A DNA stretch of 64,000 nucleotides from an uncultured Methanosarcinales archaeon. Lineage in GTDB: Archaea; Nanobdellota; Nanobdellia; Woesearchaeales; JACJVW01. This document shows, in pieces, positions 29,998 through 48,287 of this stretch. A model generated the notes under the pieces. The model worked only from the letters and a program-made list of their open reading frames with translations, was not told the DNA's origin and did no database searches. Numbering within the stretch: position 1 is the first letter of the stretch; each line of letters begins with the position of its first letter. Location of the stretch: positions 1,689 to 65,688 of the forward strand of contig CAYYOI010000001.1 in the NCBI GenBank assembly GCA_964473285.1. The letters are read 5' to 3'. Position numbers and translations under genes: made by a program.

Positions 29998-30177
29998 CTT
30001 AAACTACCTCAAAGGTCAAGCCATGAACACTGGTGAGCACTATACTGCCTAACAAACCAACTGTGCGCAACCAGTAGGGATACTTATGACAGGCTTGCCA
30101 GAATCCATTCCTAACCAAGATTGGCTGTTAGCTATATCTAATAAAATGAATATAAAATATAAATATTTTGTATACAC

Positions 30178-31354: not shown

Positions 31355-31485
31355 GATGAAAAAGAAGGCCAAAAAAATACAGACACAAAGTAAAGAGAAT
31401 CAGGAAGAATAGAAGTAAATCTGACTTGAAAAATCTTCAAAAATCCAACAGTATACCATATTAATTCTGCGAGAACACAAAAGAT

Positions 31486-31557
31486 ATGTTCCATGAGATT
31501 CTCCTCGCATTATTGGTCGGTGTGGCTTCCGGGGTAATTACAGGTTTCTGGTTCTAA
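31486..31557 (+). pseudogene. 23-codon relic N-terminal fragment homologous to the start of the TctA-like gene at 47106. Putative displaced target-gene 5' end at the element junction.
   Basis: Translation 'MFHEILLALLVGVASGVITGFWF*' versus 'MFFEILLAIIIGVNAGIITGLTP' at 47106. About 65% nt identity over 66 nt. Confidence 0.5.
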
Positions 31558-31582
31558 GATTTTCTTGATTAATTCTAAATAG

Positions 31583-32098
31583 TTGAAATGTGGACACATC
31601 AAGGCTACAAGCCATATATGTATGTTTGGATATCAAAGAAATAAGATGGTATCCAAAATAAGAGATAAAGGGCAACTTGTCAGCATTTTTGATAAAGTTC
31701 AAAGGATCGAAAAGGATCTGAACCAGCTTTTGCCAGAAATGGATCGATCCAGGTTGATCAAAGCAATGTCTAAATGCAGACAGCATTACGAAGGTAAATT
31801 GTACTATGGCAGAAGAACATATGATCCTGAAGAGATCAAGAAAAGACCAAAATTAGAATTATCCGAGATTGAAAAGATCATCTATCATTATTTGATTGAG
31901 AACGACTTAAATCCTTCCACAACGTACAGATGGTTCTTAGCTACACGATTACCTTCAGATATCAAAGAACGTCTTTCTAATAGAGAAATACCTGTAAAGT
32001 TAGCCATGAGTATAGCTGCAAATAGAAGAAGGATCAGAGTTTCGAATCAAGGGCTTCTCATGATGGATGAGATGGTCAATATCATTGGAGGACTATAA
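31583..32098 (+). CDS. Hypothetical protein immediately upstream of, and overlapping, the integrase. The start is uncertain.
   Basis: ORF only. Basic, and its position is like an excisionase/regulator slot. Confidence 0.35.
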   Translation: MKCGHIKATSHICMFGYQRNKMVSKIRDKGQLVSIFDKVQRIEKDLNQLLPEMDRSRLIKAMSKCRQHYEGKLYYGRRTYDPEEIKKRPKLELSEIEKIIYHYLIENDLNPSTTYRWFLATRLPSDIKERLSNREIPVKLAMSIAANRRRIRVSNQGLLMMDEMVNIIGGL

Positions 32099-33137
32099 GA
32101 TGGATCATGAAATAATCAAAGAAGTGTTAGACATCACTAAAGAAGAAAGGATGTCTCGGAAAGCAATTTATGAGCAATTGCTATCAAGAGGATCTCTTAA
32201 GCCAGGAGAAGAAGAACTCTTTAACATAGTCATTGACAGAGCATTAGAAAACGAATTAATCCCTTCAAATAGAATTAGGATTTACAAAAAAGCAAGAGGT
32301 AAATTGCCAACGGTTTTCACAACAGAGCAATTAGGCTTTATTTTTGAGAATTGTAATAGACCTAAACTTGCAGTTGTCATGTGGTTTGGTTTCTTCTGTG
32401 GTTTAAGAATAAGAGAGGTCTGTAATCTTAAAATTTCAGATGTAGATTTAGATAGGAGAAAATTATTTGTCAGAGACAGTAAGAACCCACTTAGAGGAAA
32501 ACAAGGATATGGGAAAGATCGAGTGGTCAGCATCCCTCAAGTAGCAATAACTCCATTAAAGAGATGGATGGATGTCATCAAAGGAGGAGAATGGTTTATT
32601 CCAAGCATGCAAGATCCAAACAGACCTATACGAACAAAGACAATTCATGAACAGTTTAGATTTTTACTCAAAAAAGTAGGCTTGTCTGAAAAAGAGTATG
32701 AAAAAGGTTTTGTGCAAAAGAATCATGGAAAGCATAAACCAATGGTTAAATCTGTTTACAAATACAGGTTTCACACTCTTAGACACACTTATGCGACCTA
32801 CCTTCTTGAAAAAGGAGTTCCAATAGAGAATATTCAAAGATCATTAGGGCATAAAGACCTTGATACAACATTAATCTACGCACGTATTTCTGATAAGAAA
32901 ACTACTGAATATATCGATGATGCATTCAACAGACCACTCAAATTAGTCAATAAGGAAAGCATTCTCAATGAGAATAAACCAGTACAACAGACTAATTACA
33001 ACATCAACAACACAGCCAATGTTTTGGCTGTCAATAATAACACTCCTATATCAATATTGCAGAAAAGACTTGCAATGGGAGAAATAGATCTCGTAACATA
33101 CGAGCATCTATGTAAAACACTAAACGGAGGAAAATAA
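32067..33137 (+). CDS. Tyrosine site-specific recombinase (phage-integrase family)
   Basis: Catalytic residues in 'FFCGLRIREV' (Arg), 'HTLRHTYATYL' (HxxR) and 'LGHKDLDTTLIYARI' (His...Tyr). Confidence 0.85.
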   Translation: MRWSISLEDYKMDHEIIKEVLDITKEERMSRKAIYEQLLSRGSLKPGEEELFNIVIDRALENELIPSNRIRIYKKARGKLPTVFTTEQLGFIFENCNRPKLAVVMWFGFFCGLRIREVCNLKISDVDLDRRKLFVRDSKNPLRGKQGYGKDRVVSIPQVAITPLKRWMDVIKGGEWFIPSMQDPNRPIRTKTIHEQFRFLLKKVGLSEKEYEKGFVQKNHGKHKPMVKSVYKYRFHTLRHTYATYLLEKGVPIENIQRSLGHKDLDTTLIYARISDKKTTEYIDDAFNRPLKLVNKESILNENKPVQQTNYNINNTANVLAVNNNTPISILQKRLAMGEIDLVTYEHLCKTLNGGK

Positions 33138-33141
33138 GAAA

Positions 33142-33459
33142 ATGGAAACAAAACAAGAATTAGAACAAAATGTTACAACAAACGACTTAATCAACATGTG
33201 TGAATTAATCATACAGTTGGCAAAGAGGGAAGATGCAAAGACAAATGCTAAGAATATCCTGGCAGAGAAAGTTTATGAAGGCTGTCAAGATCTCTTTAAG
33301 CTTGCTTGTCCTAACTGTGGCAATGTGCAGAAGTCCCCTCTTGATTTTAGAGCATTTACTGAGGACTTAACTCTTGAAGATGAAGATAAACTTTCATGTC
33401 CTAAGTGCAATAAGGATCTTGGTGTTAAGTTAAAATATTCTGTTTATACGAGTTGTTAA
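33142..33459 (+). CDS. Small zinc-ribbon protein
   Basis: 'CPNCGNVQKSP...CPKCNKDL'. Confidence 0.45.
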   Translation: METKQELEQNVTTNDLINMCELIIQLAKREDAKTNAKNILAEKVYEGCQDLFKLACPNCGNVQKSPLDFRAFTEDLTLEDEDKLSCPKCNKDLGVKLKYSVYTSC

Positions 33460-33470
33460 AACTCGTACTT

Positions 33471-36400
33471 TTATTTTTTCTTCTTTCTTTGACTGTCTTT
33501 TCTATTGAGAATAAAGTAAGTTGCTGCTGCAATTATTAGAATAAATACCCCTATTCCTATGATATAAGGTATTATTGGTATTTTCTTTTGTGATGCATCA
33601 AGAGATTGATTTATTTCTTTGTTTTCTTCAGTTGTGTTCTTAATTTGCTCTTCCTGAATCATTAGTTCTTGTTTTGTAATATTCTCTTCAATTGCTTTGT
33701 CTTCTGTTATGTCTTCTTTTTCTTCTTCTCCTGTTATTGCAAAGTAACTGAATCCTGGCGTGTTTGCTGTGTACGTTGTGATTTTTGTGTTTGAACTCTT
33801 TAGTGTTGTTTCTAATTCAGTCCATGTGTTGTTTGTATATCTGAGCAATAAGATTGTGTTTTTGTTGATTTTGTTCTCTTTTATCCATGTGTTGTTGATT
33901 GTGAATTCTATTTCTGCTCCTTCTATTTCGTCATCATTGATATTTTTGGGATTGATCTCTAAGAATTGATACGTTTTCTTGTTGATTTTCTTTGTTGTCG
34001 GAGGCTCTTTGATGTTTTTAACTTCTATTCCTACACTTGATTTGTTTTCTTTTGCTGTAAGTCTTATCTTGCTTATGCTGATATTTTCTCTTGCTATTTC
34101 AAAATCTGATGGGCTTCCTGCTTTGATTTGGCTCACATACTTTGTTTGTGAGTTTTGATCAACTGTTGGAATGTATCCTCCAGTGCTTGATGAACTGCTT
34201 CCCCCTGATGATCCTCCATTGTTATCAGGTGGTGCTGTATAGGTCAATGATTTATTATTGTGATTATTGCTTAATGAGAGGTTCTTGTTTCCTGCTTCAT
34301 CTATGCTTGTGATGGCAAAATAGTATGTTTTTGAGCTGGTTATTGTGAATGTCGTGCTGTTTGTCGTTGTATTCTTTAAGAATGTCAGTGTTTCATTGAC
34401 ATAATCCTTGCTTGTATTGATGCTGTTTGCATACCATACCTGGTAAGTTGTTATTGTGTCAGTCATGTTATCTATGTCTTTTGTGATGTTTTCCCATTGG
34501 ATTGTTGCTGTATTGCCTGATTGAGTGATAACTATGTTTGATGGATTTTGAGGTTTTACTGTATCATTTGCAGTTATGTTATGAACTTCTGAATTGTTTT
34601 GATAATTGTAGTTTCCGAGTTGATCAACTGCAATTATAGAATACCAATAAGTCGTGTCATGCTCTACTTCTGCATCAAAATAATGGTTGTTTGTAGTGTT
34701 TGCAATCCATAAATTGCTCTTGATCTCAGTAAAGTTTGAAGTATTCTTGAATATCATGTATTTGTTTGCATCATTTACTTCTGACCATGTTATGTTTATG
34801 AATCCGTTTGGAGTTGCAGTCAAGTTATTTGCTGTGAATACTGGAGGAATAGGTGCTGTTGTGTCTATTATGAAGAAAAGTGTTGTTGAAGTTGTGCTGT
34901 CCTGGTTAATACTGTTTTCACAAGCAATACTCCAATTATGAGTTCCATCAGTTAAGTTATTGATTGATCTATTGGTTTCTTCTTCGCTATTGATGAGTAT
35001 ATTTGTTTGGTTTGTGGTTGCATCCAGGTTTAATGAGCAGTTTAAAGTGTCGTTGTTTTGATCAGTTGAGCTAAATGTAAATTGTATTGTATTATTTGAT
35101 GAGTTTGTGTTGTTTCCTGGTGCATTTAGAGTGATTATCGGAGAGCAGTATTGTCCCCATGAACCTTCATAATAATAATTACCTATTCCATTCTCGCAAA
35201 AGCTTATTCCTGTCAATGCTCCTCCGCTGGAATCTTTATTTAGATCAATTGATGGATTGTAAAATGAGTTATTGTATAGTTTCACATTACTTCCTATTGA
35301 GTTGTCGTTTATTGTCAAATTATTGTATAACTTGTTGTTGTAGATGCTAACGTTGTTTCTTGGATAGATCGTATAGCTTGGCATCATATCTGCATTGTCT
35401 TTTGAAGAATAAAGAGTGTTATCTTTTATCGTGATGTTTTCATGAATTGCATCTGATCCCATATTTCCCCAATAAATTAAGTCTCCTGAAACATTGAAGA
35501 TGTTATTGATGAGTTCGAAGTTTCTTGACAGCCTGTATATTCCTGTGATTGTTGGTCTTGCAGGGAAATGTGAATAGAATGAGTTGTTTTCTATTTGTAC
35601 CTGGAAGCCTGGCATGAAAGTTCCTGAAGATACTGCTTCTCCATAACTGATCCCTCTTGTGAAGTTTGTGAAGTTGTTATTTAGTATGTTCACTTCTTCT
35701 GTACCTTTGTCAATGTATAACGCTACATCAAAATTATAGGCATTACAGTTCCTAATAGTGACATTTGAAACAGTGTTTGAATATCCTATGTATGCAAAGG
35801 TTTTCCCATTATCTATATGTCCTGGATCTATGATTTTATTGTTACAATCAAGAAACACATTGCTTGTTGAAATGTTAAACAGTATTGTTTCTGCTCCTGT
35901 GAAGTTATACGTGCATAAACTATCTAATGTTAGTGATTTTGTCAGATCATATCCATTTGATAAATCAATGCAATCAATATTTAGAGGTCTTTGTTCTGAA
36001 AATCCTGTGTTACCAAGTGAATCAGTACAGCTGATACTCCAGTTATAGTTTCCTAAAGCGATATTAACTGTGATATTTGTCTCTTCTCCTGTATTTGCAG
36101 TAATTCCTGTTTGATTTACCAGGTTATTTATTGAGAGGTTGCAGGTTGTTGTTTGATCAAGGTCTTGTGTTTGAAAAGAGAATGTGACTGATTGGTTTAG
36201 TTGATAATGATCATGTCCAGGACTTAGTAAAGTGATTACTGGTTTTGCTTCATCTGTAATTGAATACAATGTTTGTCCTACTGTGAAAAGGATTGATCCA
36301 TTGATGATTGAGATGTCTGAAGGATTATATGATCCTCCAAAAGAGTACTCTCTTTCTATTGATCCATTGCTTGCATTGATCATGTACAGCTTCTTATTTC

Positions 36401-37448
36401 CTCCAATTAAGACATATTCTCCTGCTATTGAAGGATTGCTTGATGCAGAATTATCAACTGAAAGATTCCAAATCTTTACTCCTGATGAAGAATTTAGAGC
36501 ATAAAGCATGCCATCCCCACTTACATAAACAATGTTGTCCTTTGCGACTGCTGAAGATGAAAAGCCTCCAAAACCATTCGTTACAGTATAATTCCAAATC
36601 TTTGCTCCAGTATTTAAATTAAGTGCATGAAATGATTCAGTAAGACTTCCAGATCCTCCGATGCCAACAAAGATCTTACTATCATAATACAGTGGAGATG
36701 AGTAAGATATTGCTCCATTAAGTGTGGTATTCCATATTTCTGTCCCATCTGATATGTTTACTGCGTATGTTGTGTTATCTGCACTTGAAAAATAAATGAT
36801 TCCTTCATGAAGAGCTGGAGCAGTTGAAATATAGTTGTTTGCTGAAAAGTTCCAAATCATTGATCCGTCAGTATCATTTAAGGCATAAAGATATGATTCT
36901 TTTTGATCAGGCGTTCCTCTATAAACTCCTGTACCAAAGATCACATAATCATCATAGATTAAAGGAGCAGAATACATCATAGTAAATCCACTCGAATTAT
37001 AGTAAGGTGTGAAGTTCCATCTTTGACTTTGATCTGAAGCTTGTATAGAAATCAGATAAGGAATGTTTCCATCTACTGGAATGTAAAGATTTCCTTGTGA
37101 ATATGCCGGGTTAGAAACTATTTGATTGGGAGTATCATAAGTCCAAAGTATTGATCCATTTGAAGTATTGATTGCATAGACCTTGCTGTTTTCTGTTCCT
37201 AAATAAGCTATTCCTTGATTAATCAAAGGAGAAGTAAACGTTCCAGTAATCCCATCTAATGTGGTAAGGTTCTCTAAGCCATAATCTGAAAGATTAATCT
37301 CTCCTGGATAAACTCTGTTGTTATCAAGTGTTCTTCCCCACATGATCCATTCATCTGAAGAAGTGCTGTTTGAGTCTGCAAGAACAAATGTGCAGTTGAT
37401 CAGCAAGAAAATTGCTAAAGCTATGAATTTATATTTTAAAACCCCCAT
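33471..37448 (-). CDS. Large secreted, C-terminally anchored surface protein. It has PQQ-like beta-propeller repeats, a right-handed beta-helix (pectin-lyase-like) region and Fn3/Ig-like domains, and is rich in N-glycosylation sequons.
   Basis: Signal peptide. PQQ repeats 'YAINTSNGSILWTYDT', 'YALNDTDGSMIWNFS', 'YAVNISDGTEIWNTT', 'YALNSSSGVKIWNLS'. 'IRNCNAYNFDVALYIDKGTEEVNILNNNF' is beta-helix-like. C-terminal TM plus 'RKDSQRKKKK'. Confidence 0.75.
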   Translation of the reverse strand: MGVLKYKFIALAIFLLINCTFVLADSNSTSSDEWIMWGRTLDNNRVYPGEINLSDYGLENLTTLDGITGTFTSPLINQGIAYLGTENSKVYAINTSNGSILWTYDTPNQIVSNPAYSQGNLYIPVDGNIPYLISIQASDQSQRWNFTPYYNSSGFTMMYSAPLIYDDYVIFGTGVYRGTPDQKESYLYALNDTDGSMIWNFSANNYISTAPALHEGIIYFSSADNTTYAVNISDGTEIWNTTLNGAISYSSPLYYDSKIFVGIGGSGSLTESFHALNLNTGAKIWNYTVTNGFGGFSSSAVAKDNIVYVSGDGMLYALNSSSGVKIWNLSVDNSASSNPSIAGEYVLIGGNKKLYMINASNGSIEREYSFGGSYNPSDISIINGSILFTVGQTLYSITDEAKPVITLLSPGHDHYQLNQSVTFSFQTQDLDQTTTCNLSINNLVNQTGITANTGEETNITVNIALGNYNWSISCTDSLGNTGFSEQRPLNIDCIDLSNGYDLTKSLTLDSLCTYNFTGAETILFNISTSNVFLDCNNKIIDPGHIDNGKTFAYIGYSNTVSNVTIRNCNAYNFDVALYIDKGTEEVNILNNNFTNFTRGISYGEAVSSGTFMPGFQVQIENNSFYSHFPARPTITGIYRLSRNFELINNIFNVSGDLIYWGNMGSDAIHENITIKDNTLYSSKDNADMMPSYTIYPRNNVSIYNNKLYNNLTINDNSIGSNVKLYNNSFYNPSIDLNKDSSGGALTGISFCENGIGNYYYEGSWGQYCSPIITLNAPGNNTNSSNNTIQFTFSSTDQNNDTLNCSLNLDATTNQTNILINSEEETNRSINNLTDGTHNWSIACENSINQDSTTSTTLFFIIDTTAPIPPVFTANNLTATPNGFINITWSEVNDANKYMIFKNTSNFTEIKSNLWIANTTNNHYFDAEVEHDTTYWYSIIAVDQLGNYNYQNNSEVHNITANDTVKPQNPSNIVITQSGNTATIQWENITKDIDNMTDTITTYQVWYANSINTSKDYVNETLTFLKNTTTNSTTFTITSSKTYYFAITSIDEAGNKNLSLSNNHNNKSLTYTAPPDNNGGSSGGSSSSSTGGYIPTVDQNSQTKYVSQIKAGSPSDFEIARENISISKIRLTAKENKSSVGIEVKNIKEPPTTKKINKKTYQFLEINPKNINDDEIEGAEIEFTINNTWIKENKINKNTILLLRYTNNTWTELETTLKSSNTKITTYTANTPGFSYFAITGEEEKEDITEDKAIEENITKQELMIQEEQIKNTTEENKEINQSLDASQKKIPIIPYIIGIGVFILIIAAATYFILNRKDSQRKKKK

Positions 37449-37681: not shown

Positions 37682-38950
37682 ATGATTACTCAAAAAAATA
37701 TGTATTCCGAAATTCCAATTTCCAAAGAAGAATTTGATCTTGTTGAAAAAACTTTAAGACAATTTGCAACAATCAGCGAATTTTACTTATCCAAATTTAC
37801 TAAACTCTACTCAAAGGAGCAACTTGCACGAAGCCATCCCTTAGTTGCTACAATATTAATAAGCGATGGACATAAAGAAGATGATCCTAACGAATTTTTA
37901 ATTTACCTGGAGGAACTTTTGAAGTTTCATAAACAAAGAAACACTCCTGGTTTGAAAAAAGTTATTGAAGAATCAAATAATAACAATGGCGGCACTCAGA
38001 ATTTTAATCATTCTCTTTCAGAACTTGAAATTTGCAAATTTATCATAGATAATGGTAATGAATGTAAATTCGATGATGATTTACTCATCAAACTTGATGG
38101 TGAAGAGTTTTGTGTGGAATTAAAAACTTACTCGGATTTTGCACAATTATCTCATGCCATGAATTCAGTCAGAGAGATTGAATCTAATTATTGGATTGAA
38201 ATAGAATTTTTGAATGGTTTGTTTAAAGATAAAATTGAAAAAATTGAATCTACTGTGAAAGAAATACTGCTTAATCCTTCTAAAAATGATTTATCTCAAC
38301 AAATAGAAATTAGACTTAATGATGAATCTCCAGTCTATGCGTGGGTTAGGTTTAATGAAAAAGACAAAACTCATAATTATAAGACAACTGGAGTTATTTC
38401 TTCAACTAAAGAAGCTATTGGTGTTGATCATGAGACTGCAAGAGAACAAATAATGAATTCTCTCGAAAAAGCAAGATATCAACTAACATCAAAATCTAAG
38501 TTCAATGGAAAGAAGAAATTGATTTTTATTGATTTAAAGAATTCTATTAATGATCTTTCTGTTTTTAAGAGAAAAAGAGATTTTATTCAAATTCTATATG
38601 GTAAAAGTTGTGTTATGGGAAAAACAAAATATCATAAGACTTTTGATGAATATAAAGAGTGGGCTTTGAAAGGATTTTTAGACAGTTCTATTGATCCAAC
38701 TGATAAAAAATATTTTGTTTCTGATTTTCCGAATACGTGTAAAAAATATTTCTTAGTATCTAACAAAGATCGAATAAAGACTGAAGCATTGACTTTTCTT
38801 TCAGAAAAAGGGTTATTCTTTAATGATGATTTCAACTTAATTAATGGTGTTGTTCTTTTTGAGAAAAAAGAGATTTCGTTATTTTTGAATCCTTTTGTAG
38901 ATGAGAGTTTACTTATCCCTGAGAGTAAATTCCCAATAAGATTATTCTAA
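37682..38950 (+). CDS. Hypothetical protein, very AT-rich coding sequence
   Basis: ORF only. Lys/Asn/Ile-rich. Confidence 0.4.
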   Translation: MITQKNMYSEIPISKEEFDLVEKTLRQFATISEFYLSKFTKLYSKEQLARSHPLVATILISDGHKEDDPNEFLIYLEELLKFHKQRNTPGLKKVIEESNNNNGGTQNFNHSLSELEICKFIIDNGNECKFDDDLLIKLDGEEFCVELKTYSDFAQLSHAMNSVREIESNYWIEIEFLNGLFKDKIEKIESTVKEILLNPSKNDLSQQIEIRLNDESPVYAWVRFNEKDKTHNYKTTGVISSTKEAIGVDHETAREQIMNSLEKARYQLTSKSKFNGKKKLIFIDLKNSINDLSVFKRKRDFIQILYGKSCVMGKTKYHKTFDEYKEWALKGFLDSSIDPTDKKYFVSDFPNTCKKYFLVSNKDRIKTEALTFLSEKGLFFNDDFNLINGVVLFEKKEISLFLNPFVDESLLIPESKFPIRLF

Positions 38951-39634
38951 ATAGTTTTGATTTTTCTTTACTATTCTTTGAACTGATATGTAGCTTATTT
39001 TGAATCCTTCTTTTTTGAGTATCTTCTCAGCTTCTCGATAACTTCCTCCTTTTTGATATGCTTTAAGCACATCAAACTTGTTGATTTTTGTTGTAATCTT
39101 TGGTCTTCCTCCTGAGTATATTCCTTTGTCTTTCTTGTTTCTGATTCCTGATTTGATGCTTTGTGATAGGTTTTTGCTGTAATTGTGGCTTTGCCAAACC
39201 ATGATTTGTCTTACTACGTTCCATTTGATGTCATCATCGCTGTCTATGTTGTCATTTAGGCTTATGAATCTGCATCCGTATTTATGCACTATTCGATCCA
39301 GTTCTTCGTTTGCTATGTGTGGTTGTTGTCTTGAGAATCTTGACAGATCATAAACGATCATTACTGTGTATTGTTTCTTTCTGATTTTCTCTAGGAGAGT
39401 TTCAAACTTAGGTCTTTTTATTTGTTTGAATCCTGAAAGGTATTCATAGACTATTTCAAAGTTCCAATTAGAGTTCTGGCAGTATGTCTTGCACTCTTTG
39501 ATTTGTTTATCGACATCCTGTCGGTCTTCATCTGTACTGCATCTTGCATAGATGATTGCTTTTGTCTTATTTTTTGTCTTATTCATTGTCTTATGGGGTG
39601 TCGGTAAAGGTGTCGAGATCCTTTTTTTCGGCAT
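38942..39634 (-). CDS. Small serine recombinase (resolvase/invertase family) with a C-terminal HTH
   Basis: 'AIIYARCSTDEDRQDVDKQ' is the YARxST...Q catalytic Ser motif. 'VMIVYDLSRFSRQ'. C-terminal 'GGSYREAEKILKKEGFKISYISVQRIV' HTH. Confidence 0.75.
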   Translation of the reverse strand: MPKKRISTPLPTPHKTMNKTKNKTKAIIYARCSTDEDRQDVDKQIKECKTYCQNSNWNFEIVYEYLSGFKQIKRPKFETLLEKIRKKQYTVMIVYDLSRFSRQQPHIANEELDRIVHKYGCRFISLNDNIDSDDDIKWNVVRQIMVWQSHNYSKNLSQSIKSGIRNKKDKGIYSGGRPKITTKINKFDVLKAYQKGGSYREAEKILKKEGFKISYISVQRIVKKNQNYLE

Positions 39635-39843: not shown

Positions 39844-40272
39844 TCAAGTCTTCCTTAAGTGTGCAGATTTTTTGTTTTTGATGCCTGGAGTATTTTTTTG
39901 ATCTTCAAGCATTTTCTGAAGTTTCTTCTTGTCTTCAGCAAACATATTTACCAGGTACACGTTGTTTCTTGGTTTGCCTCCTGGCGTTATGTCTGTTTCG
40001 AACTTGTAAGGTTGTGTTTTTAGCATAGCAAAGCACCACAATGCGTAAGTTACTTGATGAGGATCTATCTTTGTCGCTTTTGAAATTCTGTTTGGACTGT
40101 ACCCTTGAGGTTTCTTGTTGTTCAATCTTGCTTCAATGTATTTCTCTTTAAGAAAGTCATAGACTGCAAAAGCATTTTTCTTTGATTTCTCTTGTACCCA
40201 CCAGTGACTTTCATTGAAGTAGAAAGGCACTTTGTTTGGAAGTTTTTCTTTGTTTTTGATGCTGAAACTCAT
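39844..40272 (-). CDS. Hypothetical protein
   Basis: ORF only. Confidence 0.35.
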   Translation of the reverse strand: MSFSIKNKEKLPNKVPFYFNESHWWVQEKSKKNAFAVYDFLKEKYIEARLNNKKPQGYSPNRISKATKIDPHQVTYALWCFAMLKTQPYKFETDITPGGKPRNNVYLVNMFAEDKKKLQKMLEDQKNTPGIKNKKSAHLRKT

Positions 40273-40274
40273 CT

Positions 40275-40739
40275 TTATGCCTCCAATACTTCTCTTACAA
40301 ATTCTTTGTTTAGTGCGATTAGTCTTCTTTTGCCAAATTTGTGAAGCTTGATTATTTCGCTGTCTTGCAATCCTTGAATTGCTCGTTCAAGAATTTGATC
40401 AGTCTTCAATAGTGGAAGTTTCTTTAAGAACTCTTCTTCAAACAGTATTCCTTCGTTTGCTAAGAGTTCTTTAAACAAGATCCATTCGTATTGATCATAA
40501 ATTGTGAGCATGTCATCAGGTTTGAAATGATTCAGAACCACTTCTGAAATGATCTGACGTTGTGCAATCACATCTAATTCTATCAAGAATGATTCGAACT
40601 CATCAGGAACTTCTCGCTCCCATTCAATCTCTTTTCCATCAAGGTACTCTGGCTTTGTCAATCCCATAAAAGTTTTGAATGTTTCAATTAGTTGCATTAT
40701 TATCATCCTCCTTTTCATCCTTAATAGTGTTAGATTCAA
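40275..40739 (-). CDS. Hypothetical protein
   Basis: ORF only. Confidence 0.35.
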   Translation of the reverse strand: MNLTLLRMKRRMIIMQLIETFKTFMGLTKPEYLDGKEIEWEREVPDEFESFLIELDVIAQRQIISEVVLNHFKPDDMLTIYDQYEWILFKELLANEGILFEEEFLKKLPLLKTDQILERAIQGLQDSEIIKLHKFGKRRLIALNKEFVREVLEA

Positions 40740-41182: not shown

Positions 41183-44100
41183 TCATTTCAAAACCTTCCA
41201 TTTTCCATGCTTAGGCTCAAAGATTTTTCCAATTTTAGATAATCTTGAGATCTCTCTTTCTACCTCTTCTTCGTTCATCTGACTTTTTTCTACAATTACT
41301 TCAAAAGGAGTGCCATCTCCAGGATCGTTTTTATTAATTATATCTGAAAAATCAAAAACACATTCTTCCTCAATAATTGCAAAACCCCTATCATTTATAC
41401 ATCTTAAAATCAATGCTTTTGCTTCATTCACATCCAATAAACTAGGTTTCTCTGCCAATCTTAACTTAGCACTTGCTTCTGTAAGTCTTATTACAGAAAG
41501 AATAAATCGAGAGAAGCTTTGTATGTGATTATGTTCAATAAAACTTCTTTGATTTTTACAAAACTGTCTTATTGAATTTTCTACATCTTCAGGTGTGGGT
41601 TTAAGCTCGTGCTTATTCAAAACATAATAAATATACTTTCTAAGAAAATCTTTATTTCCAATATTTTCTCCTTTATAATTATCGAGTATTTTGGAAATTA
41701 TTTTATCATCTTGTGGTTTTTCAGCCTTAAGTATTAAATCAAATCTATCAAATATGTGTTTATTTATGCCTAATGACTTATGATCTACTCGATCTCTTTC
41801 TTCTTTTATGTTTCCAGCACACAAAATCTTTGCGGGTGCTTTCATTTGTTGCTGTATGTTTGCTTTGCTTATCGTAACTGTCTTCTTTTCAAGAGGTTCT
41901 CCTAATTTATCTATGTCATCCTCTTTTGCTTTGTCTACTTCATCTATGAAACACAATCCTTGACCTGCTAAGACTACTGCTCCTGCATCTAGTGCCCACC
42001 CACCTAGAAATTCATCTCTTACTACAGATGCAGTTATTCCTACTGCTGAACTTTTTGTGGATTCAACAAATACTGATTTTGGTGCAATATCGCATGCTTC
42101 TAGTGCTAAATGAGATTTGCCAAGTCCCCAACCTCCAAATATGTAAATATTTAATGATTTTCTAGTGTTAATATTTTTATTGATGTTTTCATTAGTTACC
42201 AACTGCAATAATAATGCTTTTTTAATGTGAATATTTCCCTCAACGTGTGGTGCAAATATATTTGATAAATTGGTCAATACATCATTATTTTTTGAAAATG
42301 AAAAAATATCTTCCGTATCCTTTATCGAGAGATTAATTCTTCTATCGTCTATGGGGTATATGTTGTTTATGTCTAGAATAATTTCACTTTTTGTCAGCCT
42401 TTGTCCTGTTCTTGAAAATATTGGATCTTCTTTTATTATACCTATTGATCTAACTCTATTTCCTGCTTGTAATATTATTTGATCATTACATAGATTTCCT
42501 CTAATTAAAGCATGTATTTTTTTTACTTCTATTAGATTAGTATTAGATGAGATGTCTTCAATAATTAATGACTGTACATCAATCATCTCTTTATTTATTA
42601 AATGAAATTTTCCTTTTCTTCCACAAGCACACATAGATGGTTCTTTGAATTTCTTATCTAATTGAAGTACATTTATTATGTTGCCACAACTAGGACATTC
42701 AAATTTGGCAGAGGTTGTTTGTGGTCTTACATCTGATTTTTGCCTGATTGTACCATCTATATAGCACAATTTTCCAATATGTTTAGTTCGGATGTTGCCG
42801 ATAAAGAGTTCAGAGGAATTAGGCAAATCACTAAATCTAAAAGGAATATCCTTTCTCTCTTTATCTATTAATTCTACAGACATTTGAAATATCTTTAACA
42901 TCTCTTCAGGATTATCTAATAAGGCATCTGCTAATTCAGGACTATATCTATAAAAATCCTTAAAATTAATTATAACAGAATCTTCTTTTTTTCCATTATA
43001 AAGAAGATTGTTTTCTTCCAAAAACTCTTTTATAAGATTAATTCTTTCTCCAATCTCATAATGTTTATATTTGGTTTTTTGTTCTTGTTCTTCTTTTTGT
43101 TTTAAATCAGAAATTATTATATTTACCTCTTTCTCCCCTTCATTTGTTAAACCCCAAATATCAACATTATTAACTCCTTGAGATTTAATTTCTATTAATT
43201 CTTCAGAAGAAAGACCTGTGGATCGACCATTTCTTTTCCTTTCTATAGCTCTTGAAATAGTATTAAGTGGAAGATTTAATTTTTTTGAAATATCAGATAT
43301 TGATAATTCTGATTCATATAAACATAATAATATTTTTTCTTTAGTGGGTAAGTTGGGTAAGTTGGGTAAGTTGGGTAAGTTGGGTAAGTTGGGTAAGTTG
43401 GTAAGTGGGTAAGTATGTTTTAATTTATGGGTAACTTGCATATTTCCTGTTCTATCCTCAGAATTAGCCCGATTTGAAACATCAGGATACCCAAGATACC
43501 CATTTTTTGATTTTAATACATACTTTTTTTCTTTGAATATTTTTTCAATTTCTATTTTTTCAATTTTGGTTTTTTCATGGATATTTTGGATATAACTTTG
43601 TGAAGTTAATTCATCAGCATAAACTAGTAAATCAAGAATTTCTTTTATCTTAGAAGTTTTTTCAATTGGATCTGATGGAATTCTCTCGATTAATAAGTCA
43701 ATCAAATGTTTAGAATTAGTTAATAATTGATTCACTAATTCTTTTGCCTCATCAACACTTTTTTTTGCCACATATTCATTAATATCTATTTTGTCTTTAT
43801 TTTCTTCTTTTGGAAGTTCACATAAACGAATATTAGTCACTTTGTTTGTGAATAAGAATTTTGCAGTTTCTAAAGCACCTTCTTCTCCTGCTTTGTTGTC
43901 TTCGTTGTCGTTGATGATATAGACTTTTTTTAGGTTTTTAACTAGTTGTAATAGTTTTGCATGATCTTTTTTTCTAAATTGAACAGTGACTGGACTTATT
44001 GAGCTGAATCCTGATTGTATTAGGCTAATGCAGTCCGTAACTCCTTCTGTAATAATAGTATAATCTTTATTTAAGGTGTCTTCTCCATAGAAGTATTTGT

Positions 44101-44881
44101 TTTCAACAACTTTACTTATGTAAGGTCTTTTTTCATTTGGGCTGAATTGTTTTTTATACTTACTTTCTTCATATTTGTTATTTGGTGTGTTTTCTGTTTT
44201 TCTTGCAATAAACCTAACTACTTTGTTGTGTTTTAGGTAAGGATATATGATTCTACCTTTAAAAATAGGAATTATTGTATCTTGATATGCTGTAAAAAGT
44301 CCTGTTTTTAGTATATCTTCTCTTTGGTACTTGTTCAACAAATATGGGATTATTCTATTTTCCGTATCTGCATAGCCTATTAGAAGTCTATCAACTGTTT
44401 CATCAGTAAACCCTCTGATTCCTTTTTCAAACTCACGAATTGTATTACTTTTTATTTTATATTCATCAATATGTTTATGATAGAACTCTGCTATGTCTTT
44501 TTGAATATTAAAAACAAGCATTTCTTCTTCTTTTTCTTTTTTTAGTTCAGCAATCTTTTCCTTGCTTAGTTTTTTGAGTGGAACACCTGTCTTTTCAGAT
44601 AATATGTTTAAAGCTGTTGGGAAATCACAATTCTCACTAATCATGACAAGGTCAAAAATATCTCCTCCTTTACTTGCAGGACATCCTGCACTAAAACAAA
44701 TAAAGCCTTGATTGTCATAAGAAATGAAGCTATTTTTGTTCTTACTATTGTGAAACTTACACTCTCCTTGATATCGATCACCTAAGTGTTTCAGATGTAT
44801 TCCATAATCTGAAGCAAGATCTGAAATCTTTATCTTACTCTTGATTTCATTCTTTATCACTTCAAAATCAAAAGATTCCAT
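41183..44881 (-). CDS. Replication protein: a DnaG-type primase (zf-CHC2 + TOPRIM) fused through an (LPN)n linker and an HTH to an MCM-family AAA+ helicase
   Basis: zf-CHC2 'CKFHNSKNKNSFISYDNQGFICFSAGCPASKGGDIFDLV'. TOPRIM 'YTIITEGVTDCISL' and 'YIINDNEDNKAGEEG'. MCM zinc finger 'CPSCGN...CACGRKGKF'. Walker A 'IFGGWGLGKSH'. Walker B 'CFIDEVDKA'. MCM arginine-finger 'IFDRFDLIL'. Confidence 0.75.
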   Translation of the reverse strand: MESFDFEVIKNEIKSKIKISDLASDYGIHLKHLGDRYQGECKFHNSKNKNSFISYDNQGFICFSAGCPASKGGDIFDLVMISENCDFPTALNILSEKTGVPLKKLSKEKIAELKKEKEEEMLVFNIQKDIAEFYHKHIDEYKIKSNTIREFEKGIRGFTDETVDRLLIGYADTENRIIPYLLNKYQREDILKTGLFTAYQDTIIPIFKGRIIYPYLKHNKVVRFIARKTENTPNNKYEESKYKKQFSPNEKRPYISKVVENKYFYGEDTLNKDYTIITEGVTDCISLIQSGFSSISPVTVQFRKKDHAKLLQLVKNLKKVYIINDNEDNKAGEEGALETAKFLFTNKVTNIRLCELPKEENKDKIDINEYVAKKSVDEAKELVNQLLTNSKHLIDLLIERIPSDPIEKTSKIKEILDLLVYADELTSQSYIQNIHEKTKIEKIEIEKIFKEKKYVLKSKNGYLGYPDVSNRANSEDRTGNMQVTHKLKHTYPLTNLPNLPNLPNLPNLPNLPTKEKILLCLYESELSISDISKKLNLPLNTISRAIERKRNGRSTGLSSEELIEIKSQGVNNVDIWGLTNEGEKEVNIIISDLKQKEEQEQKTKYKHYEIGERINLIKEFLEENNLLYNGKKEDSVIINFKDFYRYSPELADALLDNPEEMLKIFQMSVELIDKERKDIPFRFSDLPNSSELFIGNIRTKHIGKLCYIDGTIRQKSDVRPQTTSAKFECPSCGNIINVLQLDKKFKEPSMCACGRKGKFHLINKEMIDVQSLIIEDISSNTNLIEVKKIHALIRGNLCNDQIILQAGNRVRSIGIIKEDPIFSRTGQRLTKSEIILDINNIYPIDDRRINLSIKDTEDIFSFSKNNDVLTNLSNIFAPHVEGNIHIKKALLLQLVTNENINKNINTRKSLNIYIFGGWGLGKSHLALEACDIAPKSVFVESTKSSAVGITASVVRDEFLGGWALDAGAVVLAGQGLCFIDEVDKAKEDDIDKLGEPLEKKTVTISKANIQQQMKAPAKILCAGNIKEERDRVDHKSLGINKHIFDRFDLILKAEKPQDDKIISKILDNYKGENIGNKDFLRKYIYYVLNKHELKPTPEDVENSIRQFCKNQRSFIEHNHIQSFSRFILSVIRLTEASAKLRLAEKPSLLDVNEAKALILRCINDRGFAIIEEECVFDFSDIINKNDPGDGTPFEVIVEKSQMNEEEVEREISRLSKIGKIFEPKHGKWKVLK
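43346..43414 (-). repeat. In-frame 9-nt tandem repeat encoding (LPN)n in the linker of the primase-MCM protein
   Basis: Plus strand 'gggtaagtt' x6 followed by degenerate units. Protein 'LTNLPNLPNLPNLPNLPNLPT'. Confidence 0.85.
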
Positions 44882-45625: not shown

Positions 45626-45766
45626 TTATTTGACCTCCAATACTAATTTTGATCCTGATCTTTGGATGATCACACTCCTAGCATCACCCACCCAATCCAA
45701 AGGTAATTTTACGAATTTTGAATAACTACCGATTGTTTGGATTTTCTCGATAATTTCTTCATTCAT
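45626..45766 (-). CDS. 46-aa AbrB/MazE/SpoVT-like small protein. It is below the ORF-track size cutoff and was found by manual translation.
   Basis: Translation 'MNEEIIEKIQTIGSYSKFVKLPLDWVGDARSVIIQRSGSKLVLEVK'. The ATG overlaps the stop of the RHH gene (ATGA-type coupling). Confidence 0.4.
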   Translation of the reverse strand: MNEEIIEKIQTIGSYSKFVKLPLDWVGDARSVIIQRSGSKLVLEVK

Positions 45767-45962
45767 GATTTGCAACCTCTTTTCTTTCGAGCAAATCTTT
45801 AATCTCGTTTAATCTTTGAATTACCAGGAGTTGATTGTCTAGAAGCCTTGATCTGGAAAAATCTGAGACTGAACCATATCCGAGCATACCAGCTATTTGC
45901 TCAATTTTTTCCTTTTCTTCTTTGCTCACTCGAATCCGAATGAGATGATTTTTAGGCTTCAT
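45759..45962 (-). CDS. Ribbon-helix-helix (CopG/Arc/MetJ-like) protein
   Basis: 'IRIRVSKEEKEKIEQIAGMLGYGSVSDFSRSRLLD'. Confidence 0.6.
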   Translation of the reverse strand: MKPKNHLIRIRVSKEEKEKIEQIAGMLGYGSVSDFSRSRLLDNQLLVIQRLNEIKDLLERKEVANHE

Positions 45963-46173
45963 TTTGGCTCAAGTATCGTGTTAGGGCTTGACGACAGATT
46001 GTAGCTTGAGAGGTAAGACTAGCTTTTGCTAAAAGCTCTAATTTTTCTTTACAATTCTCATCAACTACAAACGTAATCACACGATTTTTATTCATAATAA
46101 ATAATTTCGAATAAGAGCATATAAAAAAATCGAGAAGAGAAAAAATAGATAGAACAAAAATACTCCAAACCAT
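45952..46173 (-). CDS. Ribbon-helix-helix-like small DNA-binding protein
   Basis: 'RVITFVVDENCKEKLELLAKASLTSQATICRQALTRYL'. Confidence 0.5.
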   Translation of the reverse strand: MVWSIFVLSIFSLLDFFICSYSKLFIMNKNRVITFVVDENCKEKLELLAKASLTSQATICRQALTRYLSQNEA

Positions 46174-47105: not shown

Positions 47106-48287
47106 ATGTTCTTTGAAATTTTACTGGCAATCATCATCGGGGTGAATGCCGGGATAATCACAGGTCTTACACCGGGTATTCATGTGAACCTGGTTGCAAT
47201 TGTCTTGGTAGGGATGGTCCCAACACTTGGATTAGTTCCAGTAAATGCAGCAATGATAATCATCAGCTGCGCACTTACTCATACATTTATCGATTCAATC
47301 CCGTCAATCTACCTGGGAGCGCCTGATGCAGACCAGGCACTAGGTGCGTTGCCAGGCCACAGGCTTCTTTTACAAGGGCTGGGACACCATGCAGTGCTTT
47401 GCACAATATATGGAAGCTTATCTACCCTTATATTATCAGTTTTATTCTTTCCTTTCTTTGTCCAGAGTATGAGATTCATCTATCCTATAATTGAAGAACA
47501 TATAGAATACATACTGATGGCAGTTCTTGTTTTCATGGTCATGCGGGAGAAACATAAGATAAAGGTAATCAGCCTGATACTTGCTGCAGGACTTACAGGG
47601 ATGCTGGTCTTTGAGCTGCCGCTTGCAAATCCTTTGTTCCACATGCTAAGTGGGCTTTTCGGGGTAAGCATACTTGCTGTGAGCCTGGCAGAAAAGGCAA
47701 AGATACCTTTGCAGTCAGAGGAGGAATTTTATCTTGAGAAAGGGAAAAAGGCTGTAACTGCTGCAACAGGTGTGGGTTTCTGCGCTGCATTTCTTCCAGG
47801 CCTTGGTTCAAGCCAGGCGGCAATAATGGCACAGAACATAGTAGGGGATATTGGGGACAAAGGTTTTTTGACTTTGGTTGGAGGGATAAACACAGCCAAC
47901 ATGGTCCTATCACTCTCCTCTGCTTATGTACTTGACAAGGCCAGAAACGGAGCGATAATAGGTGTGAGAGAATTGATAGGACAGGTCTCCTTTGAATACC
48001 TGTTATTATTCCTTTCCGTAATTCTTATTGTTGGGGGAATGGCTGCTATACTTGCTTCATACTTATCAAAGGTTTTCTCTTATCTAATACAGAAAATAGA
48101 TTATGCTACTGTTGTTATAGGTGTGATCACTATAATCTTAACATTATCATGGTGGTTTGATGGCCTATTGGGACTGATTGTGCTTTTGCATGGAACTGCA
48201 TTAGGAATTCTTGCAACAAAAGAAGAAATAGGGAAGCATCACCTTATGGGATGCCTCCTTATACCTGTAATATTCTATTTATCATGA
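47106..48287 (+). CDS. Polytopic membrane protein, possibly tripartite tricarboxylate transporter TctA-like (DUF112)
   Basis: About 10 TM helices. Gly/Pro motifs 'GIITGLTPGIH' and 'AFLPGLGSSQAAIMAQN'. Confidence 0.4.
   Translation: MFFEILLAIIIGVNAGIITGLTPGIHVNLVAIVLVGMVPTLGLVPVNAAMIIISCALTHTFIDSIPSIYLGAPDADQALGALPGHRLLLQGLGHHAVLCTIYGSLSTLILSVLFFPFFVQSMRFIYPIIEEHIEYILMAVLVFMVMREKHKIKVISLILAAGLTGMLVFELPLANPLFHMLSGLFGVSILAVSLAEKAKIPLQSEEEFYLEKGKKAVTAATGVGFCAAFLPGLGSSQAAIMAQNIVGDIGDKGFLTLVGGINTANMVLSLSSAYVLDKARNGAIIGVRELIGQVSFEYLLLFLSVILIVGGMAAILASYLSKVFSYLIQKIDYATVVIGVITIILTLSWWFDGLLGLIVLLHGTALGILATKEEIGKHHLMGCLLIPVIFYLS

What the first reader, a model, noticed from the sequence alone, without database searches (positions are those of the whole stretch)
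41183..44881. Bacterial-style DnaG primase (zf-CHC2 + TOPRIM) fused to an archaeo-eukaryotic MCM helicase in one 1232-aa protein
Archaeal plasmid and virus replicases usually fuse an AEP/PrimPol primase to MCM or SF3 helicases. Here the primase half carries a clear DnaG zinc-binding domain and TOPRIM fold. The helicase half has MCM hallmarks: a C4 zinc finger, Walker A/B motifs and the 'RFDL' arginine-finger region. The two are separated by an (LPN)n spacer and an HTH. The architecture is like T7 gp4 but with an MCM motor, a potentially uncharacterised primase-helicase arrangement.
Basis: partly seen in the sequence, partly recalled or inferred. Interest (0 to 1): 0.65.

Follow-up and report, generated by a model that had tools for sequence, protein, structure and literature searches.

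The report
DnaG primase fused to self-targeting MCM
A mobile element integrated in a tiny (DPANN) archaeon encodes one 1232-residue protein joining a bacterial-type primase, a DNA-binding domain and an archaeal MCM helicase, and the DNA sites that domain probably binds (a likely replication origin) lie inside the gene itself, which makes it a candidate one-gene replication module.

Summary
Window 41183..44881 (-) is one uninterrupted 1232-aa ORF. Residues 1-449 form a DnaG-type primase (CHC2 zinc ribbon, DnaG_N, Toprim) with its catalytic residues intact. Residues 513-578 form a winged helix. Residues ~624-1232 are a complete MCM.

No other protein matching both halves appeared among the best 150 hits of an exhaustive search of 1.84 billion representatives, nor in phage or plasmid records. 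The primase half is 65% identical to DnaG-SF3 (P4-alpha-like) replicases of a syntenic element. The rest is 49% identical to a stand-alone 802-aa wHTH-MCM. So an MCM module has taken the place an SF3 helicase holds in the closest relative.

The '(LPN)n spacer' is better explained as a DNA element. It is an array of the 9-mer CTTACCCAA plus inverted copies, flanked by AT-rich tracts. Related 9-mers recur at the same place in related wHTH-MCM genes, in different reading frames and on both strands. They change in concert between relatives, and their sequence tracks the wHTH, not the helicase core.

Best reading: a primase, origin-binding and helicase replicase of an integrated plasmid-like element in a Woesearchaeote, probably self-loading at iterons inside its own gene.

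Nothing has been tested biochemically. The fusion is a singleton, and no reads were available to verify the junction.

The parts
41183..44881 (-). Whole ORF, 1232 aa: DnaG primase, linker, wHTH and MCM.
   Evidence: ORF; domain scans
43535..44881 (-). DnaG-type primase module, aa 1-449. Zinc ribbon at 44570-44851, DnaG_N at 44141-44446, Toprim at 43760-44059. It has no DnaB-binding C-terminal domain.
   Evidence: It is 65% identical over aa 1-449 to P0001, a DnaG-SF3 fusion.
43508..43594 (-). AT-rich tract (80-88% A+T, five A6-A7 runs, a 15-nt tandem repeat). It coincides with the junction between primase homology and MCM-module homology and is a candidate unwinding element.
43486..43503 (-). 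Two degenerate inverted copies of the 9-mer (ATGGGTATC TTGGGTATC on the coding strand, peptide NGYLGYP). They sit at the same relative position as the inverted copies in P0244.
43344..43435 (-). Direct array of the 9-mer CTTACCCAA on the coding strand. It has 5 exact copies (43353-43397) plus CTTACCCAC (two copies), CTTACCAAC and GTTACCCAT, and the copies lie in all three reading frames. It encodes the (LPN)5 peptide.
   Evidence: There is no other exact copy in the 64 kb window.
43148..43345 (-). Winged helix-turn-helix, aa 513-578. It is the predicted reader of the 9-mer sites.
   Evidence: Pfam HTH_24 is weak. AlphaFold pLDDT is 81-91. Nearest folds are MarR/ArsR-type at TM 0.72-0.75. Its sequence covaries with the 9-mer.
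43013..43144 (-). Long connector helix, aa 580-623.
41186..43012 (-). Complete MCM. Helical subdomain A at 42812-43012, OB fold with C4 zinc finger at 42431-42796, AAA+ at 41681-42316, lid at 41399-41650, C-terminal winged helix at 41186-41350.
   Evidence: It is 49% identical to the stand-alone wHTH-MCM P0388.
39844..40739 (-). Two small genes downstream of the replicase (154 aa and 142 aa). They are homologous to the two genes downstream of the DnaG-SF3 replicase in locus L002.
   Evidence: tblastx: 39% over 82 aa and 32% over 59 aa
32067..33137 (+). Tyrosine integrase of the low-GC island.
   Evidence: GC profile
38942..39634 (-). Serine recombinase (resolvase/invertase) in the island.
45759..46173 (-). 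Two ribbon-helix-helix genes (NikA-like and CopG-like) upstream of the replicase operon.

Best explanation
This is the replication protein of a plasmid-like element, about 15-17 kb long, integrated in the genome of a Woesearchaeota (DPANN) archaeon.

The single polypeptide carries three functions:
- an N-terminal bacterial-type DnaG primase
- a central winged helix that recognises 9-bp sites (CTTACCCAA)
- a complete archaeal-type MCM helicase

It is a mosaic. A P4-alpha-like DnaG-SF3 type replicase supplied the primase module. Where its closest relative has an SF3 helicase, this protein has an entire wHTH-MCM module from a family of stand-alone, element-borne MCMs.

That module brought its own cis sites with it. 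The array of direct and inverted 9-mers, flanked by AT-rich DNA, lies inside the gene and encodes a disordered linker.

Inferred mechanism:
1. The winged helices of the subunits dock on the roughly six tandem sites.
2. This nucleates an MCM ring at the adjacent AT-rich DNA without Orc1/Cdc6.
3. The ring translocates 3'-5' on the leading-strand template.
4. The primase, tethered at the N-terminal tier that faces the fork, primes the excluded strand.

Shown here: the domain content and intact motifs, the mosaic origin, the DNA-level conservation and covariation of the sites, and the element context. Inferred: binding, origin function, self-loading, and primase and helicase activity.
For: Architecture and motifs.

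Mosaic origin:
- aa 1-449 are 65% identical to the DnaG-SF3 protein P0001 and 60% to P0002.
- aa 527-1230 are 49% identical to the stand-alone 802-aa wHTH-MCM P0388.
- The two genes downstream are shared with the P0001 locus.
- The two halves share composition and codon usage (cosine 0.92, against 0.80-0.82 with host genes).

Element and host:
- The island is low in GC.
- It carries an integrase, a resolvase and RHH genes, and no virion or Orc1/Cdc6 genes were found.
- The flanking SerRS is 95% identical to that of a Woesearchaeota MAG.

Sites are DNA-level:
- The same 9-mer CTTACCCAA occurs in P0244, which is about 36% identical as protein, but it is read as LTQ instead of LPN, with inverted copies upstream.
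- Copies lie in all three frames in the query and in P0242.
- P0122 and P0123 keep an identical 9-site layout on both strands, while all nine sites switch from GTCTCCCAA to GTTCACCAA.
- The layout of direct plus inverted copies is general across the loci.
- Site sequence tracks the wHTH (Mantel rho -0.57, p = 0.016) and not the MCM core (rho -0.04, p = 0.41).
- Such arrays are absent from 115 standard MCMs and nearly absent from 689 kb of cellular MCM loci.
- The encoded peptide is predicted disordered.

Precedent: SaPI Rep and PriRep, self-loading helicases with a winged helix plus iterons around an AT-rich centre (PMC9371898; PMC7581432).
Against: - The fusion is a singleton. No reads were available to verify the junction, which is full of A6-A7 runs. 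A stand-alone primase (P0241) ends at the equivalent position.
- No biochemical data exist.
- Both halves score below NCBIfam equivalog cut-offs (161 against 283.6; 270 against 940).
- Walker A is atypical (GGWGLGKS), and the Toprim DxD motif reads D-N-E-D.
- The inverted copies in the query are degenerate (2-3 mismatches).
- The covariation test rests on 9 loci with the site register chosen by eye.
- The exhaustive search lists only the best 150 hits (at least 244 bits), so an independent, distant DnaG-MCM fusion could be missed.
- No att sites or exact island borders were found.
Confidence: 0.68

Rival explanations
1. Sequencing or assembly artefact. The true locus has two adjacent genes: a stand-alone DnaG-type primase ending near aa 451, and a wHTH-MCM gene starting at M481. 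A one-base error in an A-run merged them.
For: There are five A6-A7 runs at aa 436-458. After the A7 run, frame +1 reaches a stop within 3 codons. An in-frame ATG lies at aa 481 with an AGGA just upstream. The stand-alone primase P0241 ends at the equivalent residue. The fusion has no second example.
Against: As assembled, frame 0 is open and the other two frames are closed. The window has 48 A/T runs of 6 or more in 19 other long ORFs, including a 13-kb ORF, plus 17 more elsewhere in this gene, and none is frameshifted. So the indel error rate is low. In relatives the inverted copies lie inside the ORF, which a start at M481 would not allow. Even if this rival were true, a DnaG primase gene directly coupled to an MCM gene would still be unique among the loci examined.
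Confidence: 0.1
2. The repeat is only a slippage-prone flexible peptide linker, and its DNA has no function of its own. The wHTH serves something else, such as protein contacts or general DNA affinity.
For: The five central units are identical, as recent slippage would give. The peptide is predicted disordered. Peptide units follow a loose hydrophobic / small / polar pattern. In P0242 the variable positions are third codon positions.
Against: Slippage does not make inverted copies or dispersed copies 170-250 bp away. It also does not change nine sites on two strands in concert. The identical 9-mer is kept in a different reading frame at about 36% protein identity. The site sequence covaries with the wHTH.
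Confidence: 0.08
3. The 9-mer sites are real binding sites but not the origin. They could act as an operator or roadblock for autoregulation of the replicase, as copy-number 'handcuffing' sites, or as a partition (centromere-like) locus.
For: Sites inside the gene would block its own transcription when occupied. Iteron plasmids use the same sites for control (PMC4980987, listed). The pNOB8 centromere-binding protein is among the fold neighbours of the wHTH. One relative's locus encodes ParB.
Against: The reader domain is part of a helicase. Direct plus inverted sites next to AT-rich DNA is the typical layout for initiator-helicases. The motif forms no other cluster elsewhere in the window or in the related loci that could serve as an origin. 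These roles do not exclude an origin function.
Confidence: 0.2
4. One half is a decaying relic, for example an inactive primase domain kept as an N-terminal appendage, so the protein is functionally just an MCM, or just a primase.
For: The Toprim motif has a variant (DNED), Walker A is atypical, and both halves score below NCBIfam equivalog cut-offs.
Against: All metal-binding, catalytic and ATPase residues align with those of solved enzymes. P0001 carries the same variant zinc motif, and P0121/P0388 carry a close Walker A variant (GDWGLGKS). The ORF runs 3.7 kb through AT-rich DNA without a stop.
Confidence: 0.06

Closest known systems
Phage P4 gp-alpha and the 'phage/plasmid primase, P4 family' DnaG-SF3 fusions
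   Same: Both have an N-terminal DnaG-type primase (zinc ribbon plus Toprim), a C-terminal AAA+ 3'-5' hexameric helicase and a winged-helix origin binder in one polypeptide of a mobile element (PMC4889955). The primase half here is 65% identical to such a protein (P0001), and the flanking genes are shared.
   Different: The helicase here is a complete MCM (SF6, with OB/zinc-finger N-tier) instead of an SF3/D5 helicase. The winged helix lies between primase and helicase, not at the C-terminus. The candidate origin lies inside the gene.
SaPI Rep / PriRep5 and SCCmec Cch/Cch2 self-loading initiator-helicases
   Same: The helicase itself recognises 6-12 short iterons through a winged helix. The iterons lie in both orientations around an AT-rich centre. 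The primase is adjacent or fused, and no separate loader is known (PMC9371898; PMC7581432).
   Different: Those are bacterial elements. Their winged helix is C-terminal, and their origin is intergenic, next to the gene. PriRep5 is SF3. The MCM-like members (Rep2, Cch) were not described with a fused DnaG.
BcMCM (Bacillus cereus prophage primase-MCM)
   Same: It is a primase domain fused N-terminally to an MCM-type AAA+ motor in a mobile element (PMC2715239 and PMC3273815, abstracts).
   Different: [quoted passage not shown] That primase is, to my knowledge, AEP-like. Here the primase is DnaG-type and the MCM is complete.
T7 gp4
   Same: It is a DnaG-type primase fused N-terminally to a hexameric replicative helicase.
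   Different: gp4 uses a DnaB-family (SF4, RecA-fold) 5'-3' helicase that tracks the lagging-strand template, so the primase acts on the strand passing through the ring. MCM has the opposite polarity (established knowledge). There is no sequence relationship beyond the primase fold.
Stand-alone MCMs of archaeal viruses and plasmids
   Same: These are MCMs captured by mobile elements, often as their sole replication protein (bioRxiv 10.1101/2025.02.15.638363; viral and plasmid hits).
   Different: The hits examined start at the MCM N-domain (query residue 604 or later). I found no description of an N-terminal wHTH with intragenic site arrays, or of a fused primase.
Phage lambda O protein / ori-lambda
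   Same: The origin iterons lie inside the initiator's own gene, in DNA that encodes an inter-domain linker (my own knowledge, not checked here).
   Different: Lambda O is not a helicase or primase, and its iterons are ~19 bp.

Membership tests
DnaG-type (Toprim) primase | CHC2 zinc-binding domain | tested here: met
   Pfam Zn_ribbon_DnaG scores 49.6 bits against a cut-off of 24.9. C41, H44, C62 and C67 align with 2au3 and 1d0q. The last pair is spaced C-x4-C instead of C-x2-C, as in P0001.
DnaG-type (Toprim) primase | RNA-polymerase core: DnaG_N subdomain plus Toprim with a conserved Glu and an acidic DxD cluster | tested here: met
   DNAG_N scores 36.6 against 26, and Toprim_2 24.5 against 22.1. 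E279 and D283 (EGVTD) and D325, E327 and D328 align with Aquifex DnaG EGYFD and DGDD. The motif reads D-N-E-D.
DnaG-type (Toprim) primase | Cellular DnaG equivalog: C-terminal DnaB-binding domain and the TIGR01391 cut-off | tested here: not met
   TIGR01391 scores 161 bits against a cut-off of 283.6. No DnaB-binding domain was found. So it is a mobile-element primase of the P4-alpha kind, not a cellular DnaG orthologue.
DnaG-type (Toprim) primase | Primer synthesis on ssDNA | not testable with these tools
   This needs a biochemical assay.
MCM helicase (SF6) | N-terminal tier: helical subdomain A and an OB fold with a zinc finger | tested here: met
   MCM_N scores 27.7 against 24.9, and MCM_OB 49.7 against 24.8. 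The C4 finger is C729, C732, C751 and C753.
MCM helicase (SF6) | AAA+ core with Walker A/B, PS1 hairpin, sensor 1, arginine finger, sensor 2, lid and C-terminal WH | tested here: met
   MCM scores 157 bits against 23.3, and the lid 36.9 against 27.4. K922/S923, D980/E981, K1006, N1024, R1046 and R1125 align to 8x7t and 4r7y. Foldseek gives E = 3.6e-45 to 8x7t. The WH is weak in Pfam (13.7 against 26.1) but aligns to the 8x7t WH.
MCM helicase (SF6) | Cellular archaeal MCM equivalog (NF040949 cut-off) | tested here: not met
   It scores 270 bits against a cut-off of 940. In a rough NJ tree it falls with element-borne MCMs (P0121, P0122, P0123, P0243), outside the tight DPANN cellular clade.
MCM helicase (SF6) | Hexamer formation and 3'-5' unwinding | not testable with these tools
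   This needs biochemistry or cryo-EM.
Primase-helicase fusion replicases of mobile elements | Primase N-terminal to a hexameric helicase in one ORF, in a mobile-element context | tested here: met
   It is a single ORF. The island has an integrase, a resolvase and RHH genes. It is syntenic with a DnaG-SF3 element.
Iteron-type origin with a self-loading initiator-helicase (SaPI Rep-like) | Multiple short direct repeats plus oppositely oriented copies next to AT-rich DNA, close to the helicase gene | tested here: met
   There are 9 direct and 2 degenerate inverted copies, flanked by tracts of 80-88% AT. The same layout occurs in 9 related loci.
Iteron-type origin with a self-loading initiator-helicase (SaPI Rep-like) | Sequence-specific recognition of the repeats by the helicase's own winged helix | tested here: inconclusive
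   Only indirect support is available. There is a concerted switch of all nine sites between P0122 and P0123. The Mantel test gives rho -0.57, p = 0.016 for the wHTH against rho -0.04 for the MCM core. The fold is MarR/ArsR-like. No binding data exist.
Iteron-type origin with a self-loading initiator-helicase (SaPI Rep-like) | Replication starts there, without a separate loader | not testable with these tools
   No Orc1/Cdc6 gene was detected in the island, but host factors cannot be excluded.

The most novel reading that the evidence does not exclude
A one-gene replicon. An MCM helicase loads itself, without Orc1/Cdc6, at an origin written into the coding sequence of its own linker. In this element it has also captured a bacterial-type primase. 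Origin, initiator, helicase and primase would then travel together as one 3.7-kb cassette. The wider wHTH-MCM family would be a previously unrecognised class of self-loading MCMs in elements that appear to belong to DPANN archaea.
Probability: 0.4. Interest if true: 0.82.

Novelty: new variant of a known kind. Interest (0 to 1): 0.68.

Why it matters
Primase-helicase fusions and iteron-reading, self-loading helicases are known. In every described case I could find, the MCM-type motors were stand-alone, fused to archaeo-eukaryotic primases, or only distantly MCM-like.

Here a full MCM is joined to a bacterial-type primase, so the two 'domain-specific' replication toolkits combine in one enzyme. 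It shows that helicase modules of equal polarity (SF3 and MCM) can be exchanged within one element family.

The family-wide arrays of binding sites inside the gene suggest a simple, defined system in which an MCM ring is recruited to a known DNA sequence by its own domain. That could make loader-independent MCM loading and origin melting directly testable with one protein and one short DNA. It would also explain how such replicase genes move between elements without losing their origin.

Tried and rejected
- Element borders: there are no tRNA genes. No convincing direct repeats link the integrase side to the TctA side; only 15-nt matches inside coding regions were found. Borders therefore rest on GC content and gene content only.
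- Rfam: no family reached gathering score in the window.
- Metagenome-contig scan: with an alignment of the MCM module it returned almost only cellular DPANN MCMs starting at the MCM N-domain. A first attempt failed for lack of conserved columns. The viral-contig scan gave 3 loci, one of them useful (L033).
- Junction-only homology search (aa 330-640): no significant hit. This is uninformative, because the query is short and of low complexity.
- Retained ancestral tail: the C-terminal tail is 41% identical to the tail of P0002, which suggested the idea. I set it aside because the tail also aligns with the winged helix of solved MCMs.
- T7 gp4 as closest analogue: rejected on helicase family and polarity.
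- A shared cross-family 9-mer consensus: visible by eye ([CG]T[TC]A[CA]C[CA]AA), but I did not establish it statistically beyond the identical 9-mer shared by the query and P0244.

Full report
**1. The observation**

Window 41183..44881 (minus strand) is one uninterrupted ORF of 1232 aa.

Pfam places the following, all above gathering score:
- a DnaG zinc ribbon (aa 11-104)
- the DnaG catalytic-core N-subdomain (aa 146-247)
- a Toprim domain (aa 276-370)
- MCM_N (aa 631-670)
- the MCM OB fold (aa 696-817)
- the MCM P-loop domain (aa 856-1067, E = 4.3e-46)
- the MCM lid (aa 1078-1161)

NCBIfam matches dnaG over aa 10-437 (3.7e-47) and MCM over aa 631-1196 (3.4e-80). PHROGs calls the halves 'DNA primase' and 'DNA helicase'.

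Alignment to solved proteins shows the functional residues in place (numbering):
- zinc ligands C41, H44, C62, C67
- Toprim E279, D283 and D325, E327, D328
- the MCM C4 finger C729, C732, C751, C753
- Walker A K922-S923, Walker B D980-E981
- PS1 lysine K1006, sensor-1 N1024, arginine finger R1046, sensor-2 R1125
- an MCM-type C-terminal winged helix

An AlphaFold model of aa 450-1232 (pLDDT 79) matches archaeal MCM 8x7t at Foldseek E = 3.6e-45.

**2. Context**

The gene lies in a low-GC island (0.28-0.36 against 0.40-0.43). The island carries:
- a tyrosine integrase (32067..33137)
- a serine recombinase (38942..39634)
- two ribbon-helix-helix genes
- many small ORFs of unknown function

It has no recognisable virion genes and no Orc1/Cdc6. 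Flanking genes are cellular. The seryl-tRNA synthetase is 95% identical to that of a Woesearchaeota MAG, so the host is a DPANN archaeon. I could not define att sites.

**3. Uniqueness of the fusion**

- Word-indexed searches of 5.8 billion clusters, with the whole protein and with the MCM half, found no hit covering both halves.
- An exhaustive phmmer search of 1.84 billion representatives had the DnaG-only protein P0001 as its best hit. Every multi-segment hit was an MCM starting at residue 2-40, meaning an intein-bearing MCM.
- tblastn against 50,697 phage and 72,556 plasmid records found no place covering both halves.
- The exact protein is not on record.
- Caveat: only the best 150 hits (at least 244 bits) are listed, so a distant, independent DnaG-MCM fusion could escape.
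- In the literature I could search, reviews of viral replicases list DnaG-DnaB, DnaG-SF3, DnaG-SF2 and AEP-MCM-like fusions, plus DUF3987 (distant SF6) proteins associated with either primase type, as fusions or as adjacent genes. None lists DnaG fused to a bona fide MCM (PMC4889955).

**4. Where the parts come from**

- Residues 1-449 are 65% identical to P0001 and 60% to P0002. Both are ~1000-aa proteins in which the same primase is followed by another helicase: SF3/D5-type in P0001.
- The two genes downstream of the replicase are homologous between the window and the P0001 locus. These are relatives of one element family.
- Residues 527-1230 are 49% identical to P0388, a stand-alone 802-aa protein with its own start codon, a tripeptide repeat, a wHTH and an MCM. 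Its shorter cluster mate P0121 is a truncated gene call.
- Many further 720-880-aa MCMs match the query from residue ~450-513 onwards. The 'repeat, wHTH and MCM' unit therefore pre-existed.
- The two halves of the query share GC, GC3 and codon usage (cosine 0.92) and differ from host genes (0.80-0.82).
- A rough NJ tree puts the MCM part with element-borne MCMs, outside the compact clade of cellular DPANN MCMs.

Conclusion: an MCM module occupies the place that an SF3 helicase holds in the closest relative. Both motors are AAA+ helicases of 3'-5' polarity (established knowledge), so the swap is like for like. For the same reason P4 alpha is a better analogue than T7 gp4.

**5. The '(LPN)n spacer' is a DNA element**

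On the coding strand the unit is CTTACCCAA: five exact copies flanked by CTTACCCAC, CTTACCAAC and GTTACCCAT (window 43344-43435). Copies occur in all three reading frames. Two degenerate inverted copies lie ~50 bp upstream (43486-43503). Tracts of 80-88% A+T lie on both sides. No other exact copy exists in the 64 kb window.

Nearly every wHTH-MCM relative has a tripeptide repeat at the same place, but with a different peptide: SPK, TLT, LTQ, LDQ, LPK, VSQ, VHQ, GSQ, NTN and others. For ten genes I obtained DNA. The findings:

- P0244 is about 36% identical as protein. It carries the identical 9-mer but reads it as L-T-Q. It has reverse-complement copies just upstream and another copy in a third frame.
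- P0242 reads its unit in three frames.
- P0122 and P0123 share one layout of nine sites: one inverted plus four direct copies, ~170 bp encoding the HTH, then one direct plus three inverted copies. All nine sites differ in concert, GTCTCCCAA against GTTCACCAA.
- A uniform scan shows 4-8 direct plus 1-3 inverted copies in almost all loci.
- Site similarity between loci tracks wHTH similarity (Mantel rho -0.57, p = 0.016) and not MCM-core similarity (rho -0.04, p = 0.41).
- Controls: 0 of 115 standard MCMs have such a peptide repeat. There is one period-9 array in 689 kb of 79 cellular MCM loci, against five of nine wHTH-MCM loci, always at the same gene position.
- The encoded peptide is predicted disordered (pLDDT ~30). 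The following 66 residues form a confident winged helix (pLDDT 91) whose nearest folds are sequence-specific MarR/ArsR-type DNA binders.

Peptide selection or replication slippage cannot produce inverted, dispersed, frame-independent and concertedly changing copies. Specific protein-binding sites can.

**6. Mechanism**

This section is inference. The layout is that of origins read by self-loading initiator-helicases: short iterons in both orientations, AT-rich DNA beside them, a winged helix in the helicase itself, and a primase adjacent or fused. It is described for SaPI Rep/PriRep and SCCmec Cch2 (PMC9371898; PMC7581432) and, from my own knowledge, for SV40 T-antigen, papillomavirus E1 and P4 alpha. 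An origin inside the initiator gene has a precedent in lambda O (own knowledge).

I propose the following:
1. The winged helices of the subunits bind the tandem sites. About six sites would serve six subunits.
2. A ring assembles at the adjacent AT-rich DNA.
3. The primase, tethered by a ~140-residue linker to the N-terminal tier, primes the excluded strand.

Occupied sites inside the gene could also throttle its own transcription. Because the sites sit inside the module, the helicase swap would have carried the origin along with it.

**7. Rivals**

- **Homopolymer indel error fusing two genes.** This cannot be excluded without reads. The junction has five A6-A7 runs, a +1 shift gives a stop after three codons, and an ATG lies at aa 481. 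It is unlikely, because 65 other such runs in long ORFs of this window are intact, and because in relatives the inverted copies lie inside the ORF.
- **The sites are operators or partition sites rather than the origin.** This remains possible and is not exclusive of an origin role.
- **Pure linker, or relic domain.** These readings are poorly supported (see the rival entries).

**8. Verdict**

The finding is real and its interpretation is essentially right. It is a new variant of a known kind (primase-helicase replicases, self-loading initiator-helicases), and so far a singleton. The added value is the family-wide array of binding sites inside wHTH-MCM genes, which I did not find described. 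Everything functional remains to be tested.

Noticed in passing
L003 6709-6972 (P0122) and L116 285-556 (P0123): In these two element-borne MCMs the repeat and HTH segment is inserted after MCM subdomain A, whereas in the query it comes before it (a domain permutation). Nine element-specific 9-mers flank the HTH-coding DNA in an identical layout but with different sequence in the two genes.
   Followed up: partly
window 41192-41371 (aa 1171-1231) vs P0002 986-1046: The C-terminal winged-helix tail is 41% identical (E = 4.7e-10) to the tail of P0002, a DnaG-helicase fusion whose helicase is not an MCM. The tail may be a shared or exchangeable module among these replicases.
   Followed up: partly
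P0121 / P0388: The closest MCM relative in the database, P0121 (660 aa), is an N-terminally truncated gene call. Its 90%-cluster mate P0388 (802 aa) carries the repeat and wHTH. Automatic gene calls may often miss this N-terminal part.
   Followed up: yes
window 11111-24172 (-): This is a single ORF of 4353 aa next to a WxL-interacting-like protein (9625-11130). It is presumably a giant surface protein of the host.
   Followed up: no
window 33471-37448 (-): A 1325-aa protein with PQQ/BamB-like beta-propeller repeats lies inside the low-GC island, between the integrase and the recombinase. It is unusual cargo for a small plasmid-like element. It contains 41-nt internal repeats (family D2).
   Followed up: no
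window ~23543-33180 vs Logan contig SRR11308339_31954 (L001): An independent assembly carries the identical SerRS gene on a 9.6-kb contig. By coordinate arithmetic it would end ~43 nt after the integrase gene, which may mark a variable boundary or an assembly break within the island. Only 4.9 kb of that contig was read.
   Followed up: partly
L120 3602-3610 (-): One further exact copy of CTTACCCAA lies 1.25 kb downstream of the P0244 gene, inside another ORF. The chance expectation is about 0.04 for this locus, so it could be a second site or a coincidence.
   Followed up: no
window 43538-43577: A 15-nt tandem repeat (2.7 copies; GAAATTGAAAAAATA on the coding strand, peptide KIEKIEIEKI) lies exactly at the primase/MCM-module junction, within the AT-rich tract.
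   Followed up: no
window 47106-48287 (+): A TctA-family transporter gene with intermediate GC (0.36) lies at the right edge of the island. It is unclear whether it is host DNA or cargo. A 15-nt exact match links it to 30922-30936.
   Followed up: partly
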